DNA of 38,841 bases from a virus (lineage: Duplodnaviria > Heunggongvirae > Uroviricota > Caudoviricetes): the IMG/VR virus record IMGVR_UViG_2541047816_000002; one strand, written 5' to 3'. Positions within the stretch are counted from its first letter, which is position 1, and each line of letters starts with the position of its first letter. The translations under genes were made by a program, and so were the position numbers. Positions 3,986 through 16,856 of this stretch are shown here, in pieces. Below the pieces are notes generated by a model. It saw only the letters and a list, made by a program, of their open reading frames with translations, had not been told where the DNA came from and searched no databases.

Positions 3986-4177
3986 TTAAAGACCTGCCGG
4001 GATTTCGTTATTGTCCATGTGAATAACTTTATCGACCGGATAACAGTTGCCGGGAATTTTCTGTTCCGCTGCGGCAGCCATGCATTCTTTCATTGAGTTG
4101 TACATGCCGGTGATTGCATCAAGCGACTCACCAGTATTGAGATGTACAGTCAGAATGAGTACGAATAATGTGTTCAT
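3986..4177 (-). CDS. Small protein with N-terminal hydrophobic (signal/TM-like) segment
   Basis: ATG at 4177 preceded by GGAGAG; MNTLFVLILTVHL... hydrophobic N-terminus; start overlaps stop of upstream ORF (ATGA). Confidence 0.5.
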   Translation of the reverse strand: MNTLFVLILTVHLNTGESLDAITGMYNSMKECMAAAAEQKIPGNCYPVDKVIHMDNNEIPAGL

Positions 4178-4362
4178 CGCCACTCTCCGAAAATACCGAG
4201 TTTAAGAAGGGCAATTCTGGAGAGTATGGAATTGTCATTCAGCAGGTAGGGTTCATATTTTCTCATTTTGATTGCATCCTCGGTGAAATCCCTGTTACTG
4301 AGCAGAACACCAATATTAAAGCACCCGTCAGACGTATTAACGTTTGGTAGTGACGTTTCCAT
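4174..4362 (-). CDS. Hypothetical small protein
   Basis: 62-aa ORF; GAGGA RBS 8 nt upstream of ATG at 4362; lies 10 nt downstream of the Rha-like gene stop. Confidence 0.5.
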   Translation of the reverse strand: METSLPNVNTSDGCFNIGVLLSNRDFTEDAIKMRKYEPYLLNDNSILSRIALLKLGIFGEWR

Positions 4363-4372
4363 TATCGCGTCC

Positions 4373-4930
4373 TCAACTATGAATTTTTAGCAATTGCTCC
4401 ACAGTCATATTTTTAATTGCGCTCCGGTTTACAAGAGTCCATCCTTGTTTCTCCAGATAAAACCGGAAGGTATCCAGGGTGCAGACCATTGCGCCGTCAG
4501 GAACGGTTTCAGTGAATTTGATATTGCCGTGTTCGTCGAGACGGATAACCAGGGTGCGTCCGTCCCCGTGAATCATTTTGTCGGGAGACGGGGCGTTATT
4601 CTGGCGCAGTTCAGCTTCCATGCGGTCGAACTCAGCAATGTATGCCTCTTTAAATGCAGCGGCTTTTTTGCCAGTGAAGCCCATCACCAGGAAAACGAAG
4701 CCGTTTTTGGTGATTTGGTACATTGGGAGTTTGCGCCCGGTTGAGTCGGTGTATTCGCTCGACACAAAATTGTGCTCAGTGAATTTTGCTGAACAGTCCA
4801 GATTGCGAATTTTATCCAACACTCGTTCGTGGCGTTTGCCAAAGAACTCGGCGATCGCAACAGACGTAGTGACAGCGCGACCATTTTCGATGGTTACGTC
4901 AGGGTGAGAAAGGGTAAGGATAGTAGCCAT
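4373..4930 (-). CDS. Phage regulatory protein, Rha family
   Basis: Start chosen at internal ATG (4930) with GGAGG 8 nt upstream; the longer track ORF (to 5227) would run through an intrinsic terminator; contains ...KLPMYQITKNGFVFLVMGFTGKKAAAFKEAYIAEF... Rha-like core. Confidence 0.72.
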   Translation of the reverse strand: MATILTLSHPDVTIENGRAVTTSVAIAEFFGKRHERVLDKIRNLDCSAKFTEHNFVSSEYTDSTGRKLPMYQITKNGFVFLVMGFTGKKAAAFKEAYIAEFDRMEAELRQNNAPSPDKMIHGDGRTLVIRLDEHGNIKFTETVPDGAMVCTLDTFRFYLEKQGWTLVNRSAIKNMTVEQLLKIHS

Positions 4931-5099
4931 GATGGCAGCCTCCGCGATGAATTTGATTAACTCACCACCGAGGTTTTCCACGACCATAAGGGTGGTGAGA
5001 CGTACAGGGGTGGAAATACCGGTCATCACGGAACCCGGCCAGCCTTGCGGCTGCCCTGCACGCCCCACCATAATGCGAATGTGGCTGTGCTTAACGCAT

Positions 5100-5122
5100 A
5101 AAAAAACCGCCTGAGCGCGGTT
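5100..5122 (-). terminator. Rho-independent terminator for leftward transcription
   Basis: Minus-strand hairpin AACCGC-loop-GCGGTT followed by a T7 run (an A run on the plus strand). Confidence 0.6.
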
Positions 5123-5799
5123 ATGCGCCGTGAATGATTTCGGGTTTCCACGCCCGGCACCCGTTTTATGAGGTGCAGGTGCACTATAATTCCACCCGTT
5201 CTGGTTTTCAATAGCTACATTCAACATTTTCTCTCACCTTTTCAGCGGAGTGAACTTTGTGATGCAGTGCCTGGTGCCTCCAGGTGACGTTAACCAGTTA
5301 ACAATTAACGCCGGATACAGAGAATCCACCCATAACACTGTTTTTGGTTTTAACTGTTCCGCGTGCGCTGAGCCGCATTCACCGCATCACAAAATTCACT
5401 TTAAAAAGGGCGGCAGAGCAGTCACGGAGTAAAACTGATACCGCCAAACGTCACCAGAAAATTGATAACAGAGGGCGTTGCAGCGGGGTTGTCACTTAAG
5501 CGTATGGTCAACCTGACAACCCGGTGTCCTCAACGGGGGAAGGAATAACCCCGCCATACTTACCGCCGCGCCATTTCGCGGATTGCCACAACCGGAAGCG
5601 CACGGTCGACGAAAATTTAACGACAGGCTATCTATGAACCAGCTACCTCGCCGTGCGCTTTCGCGTTATGGTCTGACTTTTCAGGGAAATATCCTTTCAG
5701 TAAACTGTCAGTGCCGGATTCTTATCCGTGTCCGGCGCACGACCACACGCTGTCACGAGAGGTCTCCATTCTCAACCAGTAACCTCAATGGAGGATAAA

Positions 5800-5994
5800 A
5801 TGTCAGAGCAGGAGTTAAAACTTGGTGCATGTTATTGTGTTCTCAAGGAGCTGGTACACATGCTTCCATCTACTCAGTATCAACAGTTAGTTGGCAATTT
5901 AAATCAGCGAATCGAAGCTATGTTAAAATCTGATGGTTTTAATAACGTAGAAACGCTGATGCTAAAAAGATATCTTGATGGATTAATCAGATAA
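5800..5994 (+). CDS. Hypothetical small protein (64 aa), rightward-oriented inside the leftward early region
   Basis: ATG at 5800 with GGAGG RBS (aatGGAGGataaaATG); 3' end overlaps the convergent minus-strand gene by 12 nt. Confidence 0.5.
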   Translation: MSEQELKLGACYCVLKELVHMLPSTQYQQLVGNLNQRIEAMLKSDGFNNVETLMLKRYLDGLIR

Positions 5995-6333
5995 CATTTT
6001 TTTACGGCGTTCATATTCGTTAATATTTATGAAGCCTGTTGCCAGAAGCAGTTCGTTAATTTCATGGTTGTTTGGCTGTTTCTGGCTCTTTGAACTGGGA
6101 TCTTCCACTTCTTTTTCTGCAAATTGTTTTGCTGTATCCTCTGTGCCATGGATATTTAAAGCTGTATCTGAAAACAGCCCAGTAAACGCATCGCGCACAT
6201 TACGAGCCATATTATCAGTGTCTTTTTTTGTTACCGATTCCAATTCAAGTTCGTTCAGACGATGACGAAGTGTGTGTGCTGCAATCTCCTGGATTGAAGG
6301 AGGTAAATCTTTAAATTCCATCGTCAACCTCAT
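5983..6333 (-). CDS. Hypothetical protein (116 aa; alternative start MEFKDL... at 6321)
   Basis: ATG overlaps stop of upstream gene (TGATG coupling); second ATG 4 codons in has GAGG RBS. Confidence 0.55.
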   Translation of the reverse strand: MRLTMEFKDLPPSIQEIAAHTLRHRLNELELESVTKKDTDNMARNVRDAFTGLFSDTALNIHGTEDTAKQFAEKEVEDPSSKSQKQPNNHEINELLLATGFININEYERRKKMLSD

Positions 6334-6485: not shown

Positions 6486-6671
6486 GCTGACCTCATTTCC
6501 CCTTAACGCCGGGGTAGCGGAACAAAAACCTGCTGCATAGTTATTAAAGTTGAACCCTGCCGTCATGTTCTTACGCCTCGGGCTGGCTACTTAACCCCTG
6601 ACCACTGCCTGGTAACTCGAAGTATTGCCCTGCATTCTGTGGGGCGGGGTGGGTTGGTATGAAAAGAAGGA

Positions 6672-6708
6672 TACCCATAGGTATTTAAAAAGTAAATACC
6701 CATGGGTA
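6672..6708. promoter_or_regulatory. Left operator-like region: two palindromic TACC-N4-GGTA sites (6672-6683, 6697-6708)
   Basis: tacccataggta and tacccatgggta (perfect palindrome) between repressor stop and the first leftward gene. Confidence 0.55.
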
Positions 6709-6750
6709 AATTTTTGCGGTGTCTTAACTGGTGACTAGTTGTTTGGTGAG

Positions 6751-7170
6751 CTATGATGCGTTTTGTGCTTTCTTTTTACGGATTTCTTCGTAGATCATAT
6801 TGTAATACTGTTTTTTCTCTTCAAGAGTTTTTAATAATTTATCCGCTTCACTTTCTGGCAGTTCGTCTAAGAGATCTAAAAAAATACGTTGTCGTGGCGT
6901 TAGAACCCTTGTTTCATAACTGGAGGCTGTGTTCGTTGATGATGAAACGATACCATCCATCCATCCCCGGGGTAACCCAAAGGACTCTTCGATAATCTCC
7001 ACCATATCATCAGCGATCCGTTTTTTTCCCTTTTTCCCCTCTGGGTACAACATTCTTGATACATAAGAAGGCTCGCGCCCGATCTTTCTGGCCACGTTAA
7101 CCGCTTTACCATCGCATTTCTCATCACGAATTTTGATGAGTTGCTGTCGTCTAAATTCATATTTGTCCAT
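6751..7170 (-). CDS. Prophage repressor, HTH protein without a LexA-like peptidase domain
   Basis: 139 aa; divergent from a Cro-like gene; CII/Cro-like HTH segment ...GKAVNVARKIGREPSYVSRML...; no Ser/Lys autocleavage module evident. Confidence 0.65.
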   Translation of the reverse strand: MDKYEFRRQQLIKIRDEKCDGKAVNVARKIGREPSYVSRMLYPEGKKGKKRIADDMVEIIEESFGLPRGWMDGIVSSSTNTASSYETRVLTPRQRIFLDLLDELPESEADKLLKTLEEKKQYYNMIYEEIRKKKAQNAS

Positions 7171-7190
7171 AGGTAAATAATAGATGCGAT

Positions 7191-7246
7191 TACCGCAAGG
7201 TAAACAACCTGTGGGTATTGACTTTTGTTTACCTGTGGGTATTCTT
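7191..7246. promoter_or_regulatory. Right operator/promoter region: three TACC-N4-GGTA-like sites (7191-7202, 7206-7217, 7230-7241) overlapping a rightward promoter (-35 TTGACT 7218-7223, -10 TATTCT 7240-7245)
   Basis: Repeated operator motif between divergent repressor and Cro-like genes; RBS AGGAG at 7261. Confidence 0.55.
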
Positions 7247-7270: not shown

Positions 7271-7552
7271 ATGGAAGAATTAAGAATATTTCTCAATTCT
7301 CTTTCGTCAGATGAACAGCGTATGTTTGCATGCGAGTGTGGTACCAGCATCGGTTATCTAAGAAAGGCATTGAGTAAAGGTCAAGTGTTAGGGGCATCGT
7401 TATGTGTCCTTATTGAGCGAGCCAGTAATGGTGAAGTTACACGTCAGCAACTAAGGCCTTTTGATTGGATGAATATTTGGCCCGAGCTGGAAGATACCAA
7501 AACGTTAACACAACCACTTTCTAGGAGCTTGATTCATGAAAATCAAGCATGA
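7271..7552 (+). CDS. Cro-like / YdaS-like HTH regulator
   Basis: 93 aa; first rightward gene after the operators; AGGAG RBS. Confidence 0.6.
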   Translation: MEELRIFLNSLSSDEQRMFACECGTSIGYLRKALSKGQVLGASLCVLIERASNGEVTRQQLRPFDWMNIWPELEDTKTLTQPLSRSLIHENQA

Positions 7553-7961
7553 ACACATCCGCATGGCGATGAATGCCTGGGCGCGTCCTGATGGCGAAAA
7601 AGTTCCAGCAGCTGGAATAACCCAGGCTTATTTTGAGTTGGGTATGACGTTCCCAGAACTGTATGACGACAGCCATCCGGAAGCCCTGGCTCGCAATACC
7701 CAGAAAATTTTCCGCTGGGTAGAGAAAGACACCCCTGATGCTGTTGAAAAAATGCAGGCTCTGTTACCGGCGATCGAAAAGGCGATGCCGCCTTTGCTGG
7801 TGGCCCGTATGCGCAGCCACAGTTCTGAATATTACCGTGAGATCGTCGAACGGAGGGATCGGCTGGTGAAGGATGTCGATGATTTTGTTGCGTCAGCGGT
7901 TGTTTTGTATGACCAGATGAATCGCGGCGGCCCGGCAGGGAATGCTGTGGTGATGCACTAA
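7536..7961 (+). CDS. YdaT-like protein (CII-position regulator)
   Basis: 141 aa; overlaps Cro-like gene end; position and size match ydaT-type genes of Rac-like prophages (recalled). Confidence 0.5.
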   Translation: MKIKHEHIRMAMNAWARPDGEKVPAAGITQAYFELGMTFPELYDDSHPEALARNTQKIFRWVEKDTPDAVEKMQALLPAIEKAMPPLLVARMRSHSSEYYREIVERRDRLVKDVDDFVASAVVLYDQMNRGGPAGNAVVMH

Positions 7962-11085: not shown

Positions 11086-11772
11086 ATGACCCCAATAAAA
11101 ATATTTATGACTATTGCTGATTTCAAACGGCCTAAATTGGAGCTCCCAAACGGGGCAAACAAACTACTACTGCACTCTTGCTGTGCTCCATGTTCCGGTG
11201 AAGTGATGGAGGCGCTTCAGGCCTCGGGAATCGACTACACCATCTTTTTCTACAACCCGAACATTCATCCTCAGAAAGAGTATTTAATTCGTAAGGATGA
11301 AAATATTCGCTTTGCTGAACAACACGGCGTGCCGTTTATCGATGCTGATTACGACACCGACAACTGGTTTGAACGTGCCAAAGGAATGGAATGGGAGCCT
11401 GAGAGGGGGATCCGTTGTACCATGTGTTTTGACATGCGTTTTGAGCGGACAGCGTTGTACGCTGCTGAAAATGGTTTCAGTGTGATCAGCAGTTCACTGG
11501 GCATTTCACGCTGGAAAAATATGCAGCAGGTTAACGAGTGTGGGCGGCGAGCTGTTGCGCATTATCCGGGTATGGTGTACTGGGATTATAACTGGCGCAA
11601 GCAGGGCGGCTCGTCCCGTATGATTGAAATCAGCAAGCGCGAAAAATTCTATCAGCAGGAATATTGTGGCTGTGTGTATTCTCTGCGCGATACCAATCTA
11701 CACCGCAAATCTCAGGGACGCCCTCTTATCAAAATTGGCCAACTCCACTACGGAAAAGAAGAGAAGGAGTGA
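11086..11772 (+). CDS. DUF208 / QueH-like protein (epoxyqueuosine reductase family)
   Basis: 228 aa with ...[11 protein letters not shown]... Cys cluster characteristic of QueH/DUF208, plus further conserved Cys (CTMCF, CGC). Confidence 0.6.
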
Positions 11773-12009
11773 TTTTATGGATCACCTTTCTGATTGATTT
11801 CATATTGGCGAGGTGACGTGAGTTAAGTAGAATGGCTGCGGGTGCTTGAGGCTATCTGTCTCAGGCATGAACACTGAAAGGCAGATAGAGAAAAGCCCCA
11901 GTTAACATTTCGCGTCCTGCAAGACGCTTAACATTAATCTGAGGCCCAATCTATGTCTCACAAATGTAGGTTAGCCTCTTACGTGCCGAAAGGCAAGGGG
12001 AAGCAGGCT

Positions 12010-12165
12010 ATGAAGCAGCAAAAGGCGATGTTAATCGCCCTGATCGTCATCTGTTTAACCGTCATAGTGACGGCACTGGTAACGAGGAAAGACCTCTGCG
12101 AGGTACGAATCCGAACCGGCCAGACGGAGGTCGCTGTCTTCACAGCTTACGAACCTGAGGAGTAA
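12010..12165 (+). CDS. hok: Hok/Gef-family type I toxin (small membrane peptide)
   Basis: MKQQKAMLIALIVICLTVIVTALVTRKDLCEVRIRTGQTEVAVFTAYEPEE matches recalled HokD/RelF; intrinsic terminator follows. Confidence 0.85.
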   Translation: MKQQKAMLIALIVICLTVIVTALVTRKDLCEVRIRTGQTEVAVFTAYEPEE

Positions 12166-12260: not shown

Positions 12261-12381
12261 ATTTTCAACGCATTTGAAGTTCTGGACGGTGCCGGAATAG
12301 AATCAAAAATACTTAAGTAGCGCGCAGGGATAAGAGGGATGGTCCCTTAAAGGGGAGAGCTAATTATCCGGAAGGATTCTG

Positions 12382-12633
12382 ATGATGAACATCGAAGAAC
12401 TGCGTAAAATTTTTTGTGAAGATGGCCTCTATGCTGTGTGCGTTGAAAATGGAAATATTGTTAGTCATTACCGCATTGTGTGTTTGCAAAAAAATGGGGC
12501 TGCGTTAATTAATTTTGTGGATGCCCGAGTGACGGACGGATTTATCTTGCGCGACGGTGAGTTTGTCACTTCATTACAGGTATTGAAAGAGATCGGAATA
12601 AAAGCTGGCTTTTCTGCTTTTTCAGAAGAATAA
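12382..12633 (+). CDS. Rem-like small prophage protein
   Basis: 83 aa MMNIEELRKIFCEDGLYAV...; resembles recalled Qin-prophage Rem; GGAAGG RBS. Confidence 0.55.
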   Translation: MMNIEELRKIFCEDGLYAVCVENGNIVSHYRIVCLQKNGAALINFVDARVTDGFILRDGEFVTSLQVLKEIGIKAGFSAFSEE

Positions 12634-12699
12634 ACTCATCTACAATCTTGCGCGGGGCTGAACTCCCGCTGAGTAACACCGTGCCACCGGAGAAAACCG

Positions 12700-15808: not shown

Positions 15809-16856
15809 ATGCTTAATACTGTAAAAATATCCAGTTGTGAGTTAATCAACGCCGACTGCCTGGAATTTATCCGGTCGTTACCCGAAAATTCTGTTGACCT
15901 GATAGTCACGGACCCGCCGTACTTTAAAGTGAAGCCTGAGGGCTGGGATAACCAGTGGAAGGGCGACGATGATTACCTGAAGTGGCTGGACCAGTGTCTG
16001 GCGCAGTTCTGGCGGGTGCTGAAACCTGCCGGAAGTCTTTACCTGTTCTGTGGTCATCGCCTGGCATCTGATATCGAAATCATGATGCGTGAACGCTTCA
16101 GTGTGCTGAACCATATTATCTGGGCGAAGCCGTCCGGACGCTGGAACGGATGCAACAAGGAAAGCCTGCGGGCGTATTTCCCCGCCACAGAGCGCATTCT
16201 GTTCGCGGAACATTATCAGGGGCCGTATCGTCCGAAAGATGCCGGGTATGCGGTGAAGGGCAGTGCACTGAAACAGCATGTGATGGCCCCGCTGATTTCT
16301 TACTTTCGTGATGCGCGCGGCCCTGGGGATAACGGCAAAACAGATTGCAGATGCCACAGGAAAGAAAAACATGGTGTCGCACTGGTTCAGTGCCAGTCAG
16401 TGGCAGCTACCGAACGAAAGCGATTATCTGAAATTACAGTCGCTGTTTGCCCGGGTGGCAGAAGAGAAACATCAGCGCGGTGAACTGGAAAAGCCCCACC
16501 ACCAGCTGGTGGATACGTATACGTCACTGAACCGGCAGTATGTGGAGCTGCAGAGTGAATATAAGCATCTGCGGCGGTATTTTGGTGTGACGGCGCAGGT
16601 GCCGTACACGGATGTGTGGACACATAAACCGGTGCAGTTCTATCCCGGGAAACATCCGTGCGAAAAACCGGCAGAAATGCTGCAGCAGATAATCAGCGCA
16701 AGTAGCCGTCCTGGTGATCTGGTTGCGGATTTTTTCATGGGGTCGGGTTCAACGGTAAAAGCGGCGATGGCACTGGGGCGTCGTGCGATTGGTGTTGAGC
16801 TGGAGACCGGACGTTTTGAGCAGACAGTCAGGGAAGTTCAGGATTTAATCGTTTGA
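15809..16856 (+). pseudogene. DNA methyltransferase (beta-class N6A/N4C, DPPY motif), frameshifted
   Basis: Two overlapping ORFs in different frames: 15809-16483 carries motif IV DLIVTDPPYF, 16308-16856 carries motif I FFMGSGST; frame switch near 16300-16330. Confidence 0.6.

What the first reader, a model, noticed from the sequence alone, without database searches (positions are those of the whole stretch)
6672..7246. Immunity region with peptidase-less repressor and five TACC-N4-GGTA operator sites
The 139-aa repressor (6751-7170) has an HTH but no LexA/CI-type autocleavage domain. It is flanked on the right by three operator-like sites overlapping a TTGACT/TATTCT promoter (7191-7241) and on the left by two sites (6672-6708), mirroring OR/OL of lambda. 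Repressors without a cleavage domain are typically inactivated by antirepressors rather than by RecA-stimulated cleavage (known for Gifsy-type prophages). The nearby Rha-family gene may be part of that circuit. No N-like Arg-rich antiterminator is encoded at the left promoter.
Basis: partly seen in the sequence, partly recalled or inferred. Interest (0 to 1): 0.5.

Follow-up and report, generated by a model that had tools for sequence, protein, structure and literature searches.

The report
Non-cleavable prophage repressor with five operators
This is the on/off switch of an E. coli lambda-like prophage whose repressor lacks the self-cutting domain and carries a short DicA-type helical tail, a known class that is not switched off directly by DNA damage.

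Summary
Four exact TACC-N4-GGTA sites and one one-mismatch site flank the 139-aa repressor gene (0.2 exact sites expected in the window). The same layout recurs beside related repressor genes in about 30 loci from gamma- and beta-proteobacteria.

The repressor has a helix-turn-helix N-domain, a disordered linker and a two-helix tail. It has no S24 fold, no Ala-Gly site and no GDSM motif.

New here: residues 1-73 are 65-82% identical to the DNA-binding domain of 221-242-aa S24 repressors such as phage mEp043 CI, which keep the same operators and a homologous Cro. The tail is homologous to that of DicA from prophage Qin. The peptidase has therefore been replaced by a portable tail.

The window encodes Rem (12382-12633), 93% identical to the K-12 protein shown experimentally to antagonise DicA. 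The Rha gene belongs to an isrK-C4 unit with its own promoter, as in Gifsy-1. Neither has a LexA box upstream, and both are absent from the relatives examined that carry the identical repressor. The trigger is unresolved.

Verdict: a new member of the known DicA/Gifsy class; moderate interest.

The parts
6672..6683 (.). OL1 operator TACCCATAGGTA; overlaps the -10 of the PL-like promoter
   Evidence: Exact motif. A pair with 25-26 bp spacing lies downstream of the repressor gene in most related loci.
6697..6708 (.). OL2 operator TACCCATGGGTA; lies just upstream of the PL -35
6668..6696 (-). PL-like promoter TTTACT-17-TATCCT driving the leftward operon (DUF1391 gene first)
   Evidence: Read by eye. 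It scores 8 of 12, below the scanner's threshold of 9. Its site/-35/site/-10 layout matches PR.
6751..7170 (-). Repressor, 139 aa: HTH domain (residues 1-73), disordered linker (about 74-91), DicA-type two-helix tail (92-138)
   Evidence: ORF. PHROG 5736. AlphaFold model. Foldseek. S24 relatives sharing the N-domain. Tail matches DicA.
7191..7202 (.). OR3 operator TACCGCAAGGTA; overlaps the -35 of the repressor's own promoter
7206..7217 (.). OR2 operator AACCTGTGGGTA with one degenerate half-site; abuts the PR -35 and is centred about -41.5 from the PRM start
   Evidence: The middle site is degenerate in nearly all relatives.
7230..7241 (.). OR1 operator TACCTGTGGGTA; lies in the spacer and -10 of PR
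7177..7204 (-). PRM-like promoter TTTACC-16-TATTAT. Its -10 ends 7 nt before the ATG, so the repressor mRNA is probably leaderless.
   Evidence: A TAGAAT-like -10 at the same distance from the ATG is conserved in relatives.
7218..7245 (+). PR promoter TTGACT-16-TATTCT
   Evidence: The TCAATACC block (-35 plus OR2) is conserved in relatives.
7271..7552 (+). Cro-like regulator (YdaS family), 93 aa
   Evidence: Pfam and PHROG hits. It is 61-71% identical to the Cro of the other loci with TACC operators and unrelated to DicC or Tritos Cro.
7536..7961 (+). CII-like regulator (YdaT family)
   Evidence: Pfam YdaT and PHROG 163 'CII-like transcriptional activator'.
12382..12633 (+). Rem homologue, 83 aa; candidate antirepressor
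   Evidence: 92.8% identical to K-12 Qin Rem. Rem derepresses DicA-controlled dicBp 165-fold (PMC10448788).
12274..12303 (+). Promoter-like site TTGAAG-18-TAGAAT upstream of rem, after the hokD terminator; no LexA box
5183..5211 (-). Promoter-like site TTGAAA-17-TATAGT (10 of 12) of the isrK-C4-Rha unit
5100..5176 (-). isrK-like sRNA with its own terminator (5122-5105)
   Evidence: Rfam RF01394, 67.7 bits. Terminator.
4988..5075 (-). C4-type antisense RNA
   Evidence: Rfam RF01695, 81.9 bits.
4373..4930 (-). Rha-domain protein, 185 aa from the ATG at 4930, which follows a GGAGG; second antirepressor candidate
   Evidence: Pfam Phage_pRha, E 5e-31. Sequence. Gifsy-1 has the same order: isrK, C4, AnrP.

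Best explanation
This is the immunity switch of a lambdoid E. coli prophage integrated next to ompW.

Repression (well supported). The 139-aa repressor binds TACC-N4-GGTA operators through an N-terminal helix-turn-helix domain. It probably binds as a dimer; this is inferred. OR1 and OR2 bracket the -35 of PR and cover its -10. OL1 and OL2 do the same at PL. Occupied sites therefore shut off the cro/cII/replication operon and the leftward DUF1391-dicF-dicB-exonuclease operon.

Autoregulation (inferred by analogy with lambda and DicA). OR2 has a weak half-site and lies 24 bp from OR1, centred about -41.5 from the repressor's own start. This suggests cooperative filling and activation of a leaderless PRM transcript. 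OR3 over the PRM -35 would give negative autoregulation.

Origin (shown by comparison). The protein is a domain chimera. Its DNA-binding domain, operators and Cro are those of a widespread family of S24-peptidase CI repressors such as mEp043 CI. The peptidase is replaced by a two-helix tail of about 50 aa, homologous to the C-terminus of DicA. This tail is found on many unrelated HTH domains.

Induction (inferred). With no S24 fold, no Ala-Gly site and no Ser/Lys motif, RecA cannot trigger self-cleavage. Inactivation most likely needs a protein antagonist. In this window the best candidate is Rem, 5.2 kb to the right. The isrK-C4-Rha cassette is the second candidate. Neither has a LexA box, so the trigger is not a direct SOS signal and remains unknown.

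My confidence by step: repressor and operators about 0.9; not cleaved via RecA about 0.9; antirepressor-mediated induction about 0.55; Rem specifically about 0.35.
For: Operators.
- Four exact sites against 0.2 expected, plus one one-mismatch site.
- They overlap promoter-like hexamers.
- The core is invariant at fixed distances from the repressor ATG in relatives from many genera.
- The 6 aligned repressors share 47 invariant residues within 1-72, including the recognition helix E33-Y42. A homologous Cro travels with the operators.

Repressor structure.
- AlphaFold mean pLDDT is 80.8. Helices span 3-18, 23-30, 34-41 and 54-63; residues 76-87 score below 50; helices then span 92-103 and 106-138. 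There are no strands.
- Foldseek hits are XRE-type HTH domains (rmsd 2.4-3.0 over about 70 residues). The top hit is the antirepressor-controlled Rep of phage SPC32H, 5d50 (E 1.7e-3).

Domain swap.
- S24 relatives share 63-82% identity over the N-terminal 53-73% of the query. They carry GDSM and the Pfam Peptidase_S24 domain.
- Tail against DicA: BLASTP E 2e-7; hhalign 96.6%, E 5.6e-10.
- An exhaustive search finds the tail in 44 clusters, always at the C-terminal end of the hit; the full-length hits are about 117-216 aa. 28 of 36 members scanned have a Pfam HTH_3 N-domain.
- DicA's own N-domain is 58.7% identical to that of P22 C2.

Antirepressor candidates.
- Rem is 92.8% identical to K-12 Rem, a tested DicA antirepressor (PMC10448788).
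- Short repressors of the Gifsy/DicA class are not cleaved and are removed from DNA by antirepressors (PMC3121763).
- The Rha cassette has its own promoter and the Gifsy-1 isrK-C4-anrP order.
- Phage Tritos has a tail 72% identical to this one. Ciprofloxacin strongly induced only the prophages Gally and Cyrano in that study; trimethoprim slightly decreased Tritos production (PMC9928086).
Against: - No binding or induction experiment exists for this protein.
- Rem may not be cognate. The tail is only 33% identical to DicA's, and the DNA-binding domain is unrelated to DicA's.
- The closest complete genomes with the identical repressor lack rem at this slot. AR_0017 has 56 bp in place of 422 bp; AR_0013 also lacks it. 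None of the 30 listed best matches carries the whole segment in one piece.
- In the phage collection Rem accompanies all 15 E. coli phages with a full-length DicA-type repressor. It accompanies none of the 4 phages with this tail subtype.
- The Serratia and Yersinia relatives without a peptidase have no Rem hit within 8 kb.
- The Rha cassette is present only in the eight closest genomes and one more distant one (MLI109) among the 30 best matches listed.
- No LexA box lies upstream of rem or Rha.
- Dimerisation and cooperativity through the tail are inferred, not computed.
Confidence: 0.6

Rival explanations
1. There is no dedicated antirepressor. The switch flips spontaneously or under general stress, because the tailed repressor is intrinsically unstable and Cro locks in the lytic state. 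Rem and Rha are passengers acquired by recombination.
For: - The relatives examined that carry the identical repressor have neither rem nor Rha in the prophage.
- DicA-controlled dicBp switches on in about 1% of cells, and under urea or heat, without Rem but dependent on DicC (PMC10448788).
- Tritos, which has the same tail subtype and no Rem, is produced spontaneously. It was not among the two prophages strongly induced by ciprofloxacin (PMC9928086).
Against: - Rem is intact here, with a promoter-like site and a position conserved in functional DicA-type phages.
- Rem genes occur in 2,991 of 5,426 complete E. coli genomes and could act in trans.
- In Tritos the slot that holds rem in this window holds an ImmA/IrrE-type metalloprotease gene, which hints that this slot carries a repressor-inactivation function.
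Confidence: 0.22
2. The isrK-C4-Rha cassette is the working antirepressor. RNA-level control, as in P1 immI or Gifsy-1 isrK-anrP, releases the Rha protein, which then inactivates the repressor.
For: - The cassette has its own 10-of-12 promoter, an isrK match with a terminator, a C4 RNA, and a strong ribosome-binding site before a Rha-domain ORF.
- Gifsy-1 shows the same order in front of AnrP. Expression of anrP raises antQ operon transcripts (PMC4825925).
Against: - The cassette sits between a dicB fragment and an intact dicB, and it is missing from most prophages of this immunity type.
- Rha and AnrP have different N-domains, Phage_pRha against ORF6N. They share only a weak C-terminal match, E 0.007.
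- No Rha-domain protein was linked to this repressor family in the other loci.
Confidence: 0.1
3. The repressor is still inactivated by RecA-stimulated self-cleavage through a cryptic site or fold.
For: None found. The only link is that its closest N-domain relatives are S24 repressors.
Against: - Only about 65 residues follow the HTH domain. They are modelled as a disordered linker and two helices, with no strands.
- There is no Pfam S24 hit even at E<=10, no Ala-Gly dipeptide and no GDSM motif (direct reading; compare).
- Gifsy repressors of the same class are not cleaved after mitomycin C (PMC3121763).
Confidence: 0.02

Closest known systems
DicA-DicC immunity region of cryptic prophage Qin (E. 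coli K-12), with antirepressor Rem
   Same: - A short repressor of 135-139 aa: HTH, linker and a homologous LPxSE helical tail.
- A divergent cro-like gene.
- The same leftward operon content: DUF1391/ydfA, DicF and dicB.
- A hokD-rem-ydfU segment that is 93.9% identical in DNA.
   Different: - The DNA-binding domain is unrelated. DicA's is a Pfam HTH_3 domain, 58.7% identical to that of P22 C2. This one has no Pfam hit and resembles mEp043 CI.
- The operators differ: there is no TACC-N4-GGTA in the Qin locus.
- The Cro is unrelated to DicC.
- The tail is only about 33% identical.
Gifsy-1/-2/-3 repressors (GfoR, GtgR, GfhR) with LexA-controlled antirepressors (Lemire et al. 2011, PMC3121763)
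   Same: - A repressor of about 136 aa without a cleavage motif.
- Weak tail similarity (BLASTP E 1e-3; hhalign 57%).
- The antirepressor gene lies to the right of the replication genes.
- The isrK-C4 cassette is shared with Gifsy-1.
   Different: - There is no dinI gene and no LexA box at the antirepressor candidate.
- Rem shows no BLAST similarity to the ORF STM2621.1n, which lies just downstream of dinI in Gifsy-1.
- In Gifsy-1 the isrK cassette lies after Q, not in the left operon.
CI of coliphage mEp043 and related S24 (LexA-family) repressors
   Same: - The N-terminal domain is 65-82% identical, with an invariant recognition helix.
- The TACC-N4-GGTA OR/OL layout and promoter geometry are the same.
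- The Cro is homologous, 61-71% identical.
   Different: These proteins are 221-242 aa with a Peptidase_S24 domain and a GDSM motif. They are presumably cleaved via RecA. mEp043 also has an N antiterminator after PL.
Lambda CI with OR and OL
   Same: - Divergent PR and PRM with three OR sites.
- OR1-OR2 spacing of 24 bp.
- A weak OR2.
- A leaderless repressor mRNA.
- Operator pairs at both early promoters.
   Different: - OL has two sites, not three.
- OR2-OR3 spacing is 15 bp.
- The operator is 12 bp with a different sequence.
- There is no S24 domain.
- No N gene follows PL.
Rep-Ant system of Salmonella phage SPC32H (PDB 5d50)
   Same: It is the best structural match to the whole model: an HTH domain plus a helical C-terminal part. 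That repressor is controlled by an antirepressor.
   Different: The match is weak (E 1.7e-3, 18% identity, rmsd 16.8). There is no sequence-level relationship.

Membership tests
Lambda CI / LexA-type self-cleaving repressor | N-terminal helix-turn-helix DNA-binding domain | tested here: met
   The AlphaFold model has helices at 3-18, 23-30, 34-41 and 54-63. Foldseek matches XRE-type HTH domains with rmsd 2.4-3.0.
Lambda CI / LexA-type self-cleaving repressor | C-terminal Peptidase_S24 domain with a Ser/Lys dyad | tested here: not met
   No Pfam hit at E<=10. The C-terminus is two helices. There is no GDSM motif, unlike its S24 relatives.
Lambda CI / LexA-type self-cleaving repressor | Ala-Gly (or Cys-Gly) cleavage site in the linker | tested here: not met
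   Direct reading of the 139-aa sequence finds no AG or CG dipeptide.
Lambda CI / LexA-type self-cleaving repressor | Multiple operators overlapping the divergent PR/PRM promoters and PL | tested here: met
DicA/Gifsy-type short non-cleavable prophage repressor | About 130-150 aa, with an HTH domain and no cleavage motif | tested here: met
DicA/Gifsy-type short non-cleavable prophage repressor | C-terminal helical tail homologous to that of DicA (L-x-P-x4-L-x-L-F/L-x2-L-P-x-S-E ...) | tested here: met
   BLASTP E 2e-7. hhalign 96.6%, E 5.6e-10. The match to the Gifsy-1 repressor is weaker: 57%, E 1e-4.
DicA/Gifsy-type short non-cleavable prophage repressor | A small antirepressor gene (GfoA/Rem type) in the same prophage, to the right of the replication genes | tested here: met
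   rem at 12382-12633 is 92.8% identical to K-12 Rem. It is absent from the closest relatives, so the link to this repressor is uncertain.
DicA/Gifsy-type short non-cleavable prophage repressor | The antirepressor binds the repressor and releases it from DNA | not testable with these tools
   This needs a gel-shift or pull-down assay. It is known for GftA/GtgR (PMC3121763). For Rem/DicA it is shown genetically (PMC10448788).
Gifsy-type SOS coupling | A LexA box controlling the antirepressor operon (dinI-antirepressor-irsA) | tested here: not met
   No CTG-N10-CAG box with a good score lies upstream of rem or Rha. The only good box (16 of 20, 15817-15836) lies inside the start of a methyltransferase ORF. 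There is no dinI gene in the window's annotated relatives.
P1 immI / Gifsy-1 isrK-anrP antirepressor cassette | A C4-type antisense RNA and its target-bearing RNA (isrK / a1b1) upstream of the protein gene, with their own promoter | tested here: met
   Rfam C4 81.9 bits and isrK 67.7 bits. Promoter and terminator. Gifsy-1 has the same order.
P1 immI / Gifsy-1 isrK-anrP antirepressor cassette | The downstream protein is homologous to a proven antirepressor | tested here: inconclusive
   The protein has a Phage_pRha domain, whereas AnrP has an ORF6N domain. Only the C-terminal ends align weakly, E 0.007. It was not compared with P1 Ant.

The most novel reading that the evidence does not exclude
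The DicA-type tail may be a portable replacement for the S24 peptidase. It would switch an immunity module from SOS-cleavable to non-cleavable without changing operator specificity.

The recognition helix and the operator core are invariant between this repressor and S24 repressors such as mEp043 CI. Phages with the same immunity but different induction logic should therefore co-exist. A resident tailed repressor would then act as a dominant, SOS-proof repressor. It would block induction, or superinfection, by S24-type phages of the same immunity group.

The slot between hokD and ydfU may hold interchangeable modules that inactivate the repressor: rem here, an ImmA/IrrE-type protease in Tritos, and nothing in the two relatives examined.
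Probability: 0.3. Interest if true: 0.55.

Novelty: new member of a known kind. Interest (0 to 1): 0.33.

Why it matters
- The protein, WP_000362153, is annotated 'hypothetical protein'. At least 821 of 5,426 complete E. coli genomes carry this immunity region. Naming it as the prophage repressor and defining its operators improves annotation.
- It predicts that these prophages will not respond to DNA-damaging antibiotics in the way lambda does.
- The paired S24 and tailed versions of one DNA-binding module are a natural experiment. They show how phages rewire the induction signal while keeping immunity specificity.
- They also make cross-talk between co-resident prophages testable.
- The general principle has been known since 2011: short non-cleavable repressors are controlled by antirepressors.

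Tried and rejected
- LexA boxes. A strict CTGT-N8-ACAG search gave two hits, both inside coding sequence. A consensus-scored scan gave one good box, at 15817-15836, inside the start of a methyltransferase ORF and not near any antirepressor candidate. SOS coupling through LexA is rejected for rem and Rha.
- Sequence search of the PDB gave nothing significant. Pfam gave nothing for the repressor, Rem, the 92-aa ORF or the 64-aa ORF.
- A word-indexed search with the tail alone returned only fragments of the same protein. The exhaustive HMMER search was needed.
- Rem against the Gifsy-1 ORF downstream of dinI gave no BLAST similarity, so homology to GfoA could not be confirmed here.
- Rha against Gifsy-1 AnrP gave only a weak C-terminal match.
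- The terminator-like hairpin at 6672-6708 is simply the two palindromic OL sites pairing with each other. I did not treat it as a separate feature.
- Co-occurrence of Rem with the tail subtype in the phage collection (15 of 15 against 0 of 4) rests on few independent lineages. I did not treat it as a statistic.
- No complete E. coli genome carries the window's exact combination of this immunity region, the Rha cassette and rem.

Full report
**Source of the window.** The window is a lambdoid E. coli prophage integrated beside ompW. The 1.5 kb around the finding is 100% identical to chromosomes such as E. coli AR_0017. At least 80% of it is present in 821 of 5,426 complete genomes. In those records the repressor (WP_000362153.1) is annotated 'hypothetical protein'.

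**The observation.**
- TACC-N4-GGTA occurs exactly four times in 38.8 kb, at 6672, 6697, 7191 and 7230. The expectation is 0.20, and no shuffle out of 100 reaches four.
- A fifth site with one mismatch, AACCTGTGGGTA, lies at 7206-7217.
- On the right, the promoter scan finds PR as TTGACT-16-TATTCT (7218-7245).
- It also finds a divergent TTTACC-16-TATTAT (7204-7177). Its -10 ends 7 nt before the repressor ATG at 7170, which implies a leaderless mRNA as for lambda cI.
- On the left, the minus strand reads site / TTTACT / 17 nt containing the second site / TATCCT (6708-6668). This has the same geometry as PR. It matches 8 of 12 positions and was found by eye.
- Centre-to-centre spacings are 24 bp (OR1-OR2), 15 bp (OR2-OR3) and 25 bp (OL1-OL2).

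**Comparative test of the operators.**
- I fetched loci encoding relatives of the repressor from phage mEp043, Salmonella, Pantoea, Serratia and Yersinia. A scan of one genome per species added 26 more loci.
- In most of them, exact TACC-N4-GGTA sites lie at about -72 and -32 from the repressor ATG. A second pair 25-26 bp apart lies downstream of the gene, at a variable distance.
- An alignment of 21 OR regions shows invariant TACC and GGTA cores and variable centres. It also shows a conserved TCAATACC block (PR -35 plus OR2), a middle site that is degenerate in one half, and a TAGAAT-like -10 just before the ATG.
- The Cro-like proteins of these loci are 61-71% identical to the window's. They are unrelated to DicC or Tritos Cro.
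- The operators, the promoters, the DNA-binding domain and Cro therefore form one inherited module. The sites are real.

**The repressor.**
- Pfam finds nothing, even at E<=10. PHROG 5736, 'transcriptional regulator', matches over the full length.
- An AlphaFold model built from 15 relatives has a mean pLDDT of 80.8. It gives helices at 3-18, 23-30, 34-41 and 54-63, a low-confidence linker (residues 76-87 score below 50), and two helices at 92-103 and 106-138. There are no strands.
- Foldseek matches the N-domain to XRE-type HTH proteins: C.BclI, C.Esp1396I, SinR and the 434 repressor. The best whole-chain hit, a weak one, is Rep of the SPC32H Rep-Ant complex.
- The sequence has no Ala-Gly dipeptide and no GDSM motif. 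A cryptic peptidase is excluded as far as computation can tell.

**A domain swap.**
- The homology search returns two groups. One group is full-length relatives of 135-145 aa in Escherichia, Salmonella, Serratia and Yersinia.
- The other group is many proteins of 221-242 aa that carry Peptidase_S24. They match only the N-terminal 53-73% of the query, at 63-82% identity.
- Across the 6 aligned repressors, 47 positions within residues 1-72 are invariant, including the recognition helix E33-Y42. Similarity ends right after LPRGWMDG. The longer proteins continue with an S24 domain containing GDSM.
- The window's tail instead matches DicA of Qin: BLASTP 33% identity, E 2e-7; hhalign 96.6% probability, E 5.6e-10.
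- It is 72% identical to the tail of the CI of phage Tritos, whose HTH domain is different. It matches the Gifsy-1 repressor weakly.
- An exhaustive search with the tail alone finds 44 clusters, always with the match at the C-terminal end; the full-length hits are about 117-216 aa.
- 28 of 36 members scanned have a Pfam HTH_3 N-domain of varied sequence. No Pfam family covers the tail.
- DicA shows the same pattern: its N-domain is 58.7% identical to that of the S24 repressor P22 C2.
- The tail is thus a portable alternative to the peptidase.

**What switches it off.**
- The literature sets the frame. Gifsy repressors of about 136 aa are not cleaved; small antirepressors made from a LexA-controlled dinI operon remove them from DNA. 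That study names DicA and RacR as members of the group (PMC3121763).
- Rem of Qin derepresses DicA-controlled dicBp 165-fold. Its inducing signal is unknown, and spontaneous or stress-driven switching occurs without it (PMC10448788).
- The window encodes a Rem homologue at 12382-12633, 92.8% identical to K-12 Rem. It lies after hokD and before a 92-aa ORF and ydfU. PPompW phages and a Rac-like phage with DicA-type repressors have the same arrangement.
- A promoter-like site precedes rem. No LexA box does.

**Caveats on Rem.**
- The closest genomes with the identical repressor lack rem. AR_0017 has 56 bp where the window has 422 bp, and flanking identity drops from 98.8% to 90.7% across the junction. 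The window matches Qin at 93.9% through this segment.
- AR_0013 also lacks rem in this prophage but carries a copy elsewhere.
- In the phage collection, Rem accompanies 15 of 15 E. coli phages with full-length DicA-type repressors. It accompanies 0 of 4 with this tail subtype. These are few independent lineages.
- In Tritos the same slot holds a hypothetical gene and an ImmA/IrrE-type metalloprotease gene. In that study ciprofloxacin strongly induced only the prophages Gally and Cyrano; Tritos was produced spontaneously, and trimethoprim slightly decreased its production (PMC9928086).
- Rem is therefore the best candidate in this window, but it may have arrived by recombination rather than being a fixed partner.

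**The Rha gene.**
- Rfam places an isrK match (5176-5100) and a C4 antisense RNA (5075-4988) inside the N-terminal part of the annotated 284-aa ORF, the part that hits the Pfam 'Ash' family.
- A 10-of-12 promoter (5211-5183) and a terminator (5122-5105) frame isrK. A GGAGG and an ATG at 4930 start a 185-aa Rha-domain protein.
- Gifsy-1 has the same order: isrK, C4, then AnrP, a predicted antirepressor whose expression raises antQ operon transcripts (PMC4825925).
- It lies between a dicB fragment and an intact dicB. It is missing from most prophages with this immunity region. Its protein shares only a weak C-terminal match with AnrP.

**Verdict.** The finding is real and correctly interpreted in outline. 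It is a new member of the known DicA/Gifsy class of non-cleavable prophage repressors. Its DNA-binding domain was previously unannotated, and its operators are now well defined by comparison. The trigger of induction remains open.

Noticed in passing
window 4373-5227 (- strand): RefSeq annotates a 284-aa 'Rha family' protein here. Its N-terminal 'Ash' part (Pfam PF10554) coincides with two RNA genes, isrK and C4. A strong ribosome-binding site and an ATG at 4930 start the Rha domain. The long ORF is probably over-extended, and the Pfam Ash family may partly describe translated RNA genes.
   Followed up: partly
window 5252-5338 and 4174-4362: A dicB fragment and an intact dicB flank the isrK-C4-Rha cassette. 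Relatives without the cassette start matching at window 5251. This looks like the footprint of an insertion into the dicB region.
   Followed up: partly
window 5408-5459 (-): A DicF sRNA (Rfam, 76.7 bits) lies in the leftward operon, as in Qin.
   Followed up: no
window 15817-15836: The best LexA-box-like sequence in the window is TACTGTAAAAATATCCAGTT (16 of 20 to consensus). It lies inside the first codons of a DNA methyltransferase ORF (ATG at 15809) downstream of Q. The ORF is frameshifted.
   Followed up: partly
window 12261-12682, compared with L001 13961-14016: The rem gene and its promoter (422 bp) are replaced by 56 bp in AR_0017. Identity to AR_0017 changes from 98.8% to 90.7% across this point, which marks a recombination junction.
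   Followed up: yes
L043 (phage Tritos) 6335-8091: The slot between hokD and the 92-aa ORF/ydfU, which holds rem in the window, holds a hypothetical gene and an ImmA/IrrE-type metalloprotease with an XRE-type HTH in Tritos. This may be an alternative module for inactivating the repressor.
   Followed up: no
window 5800-5994 (+): A 64-aa ORF (PHROG 4987, no Pfam hit) is convergent with the leftward operon. It lies next to a truncated ORF on the - strand (5983-6333) that RefSeq marks as a pseudogene. Its function is unknown.
   Followed up: no
window 11086-12165: A QueH (epoxyqueuosine reductase) gene lies at 11086-11772. A hok/sok toxin-antitoxin locus follows (sok, Rfam 120.5 bits, 11840-12015; hokD to 12165). 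Both lie between the replication genes and rem.
   Followed up: no
window 16906-17909: Three tRNA genes and two copies of the sRNA STnc100 (17232-17422 and 17700-17909) lie downstream of the methyltransferase, in the late-promoter region.
   Followed up: no
L017-L042: The recognition helix (EPSYVSRMLY) and the TACC-N4-GGTA operators are conserved from Enterobacterales to Aeromonas, Burkholderiales and Stenotrophomonas. That is an unusually wide spread for a single immunity specificity.
   Followed up: partly
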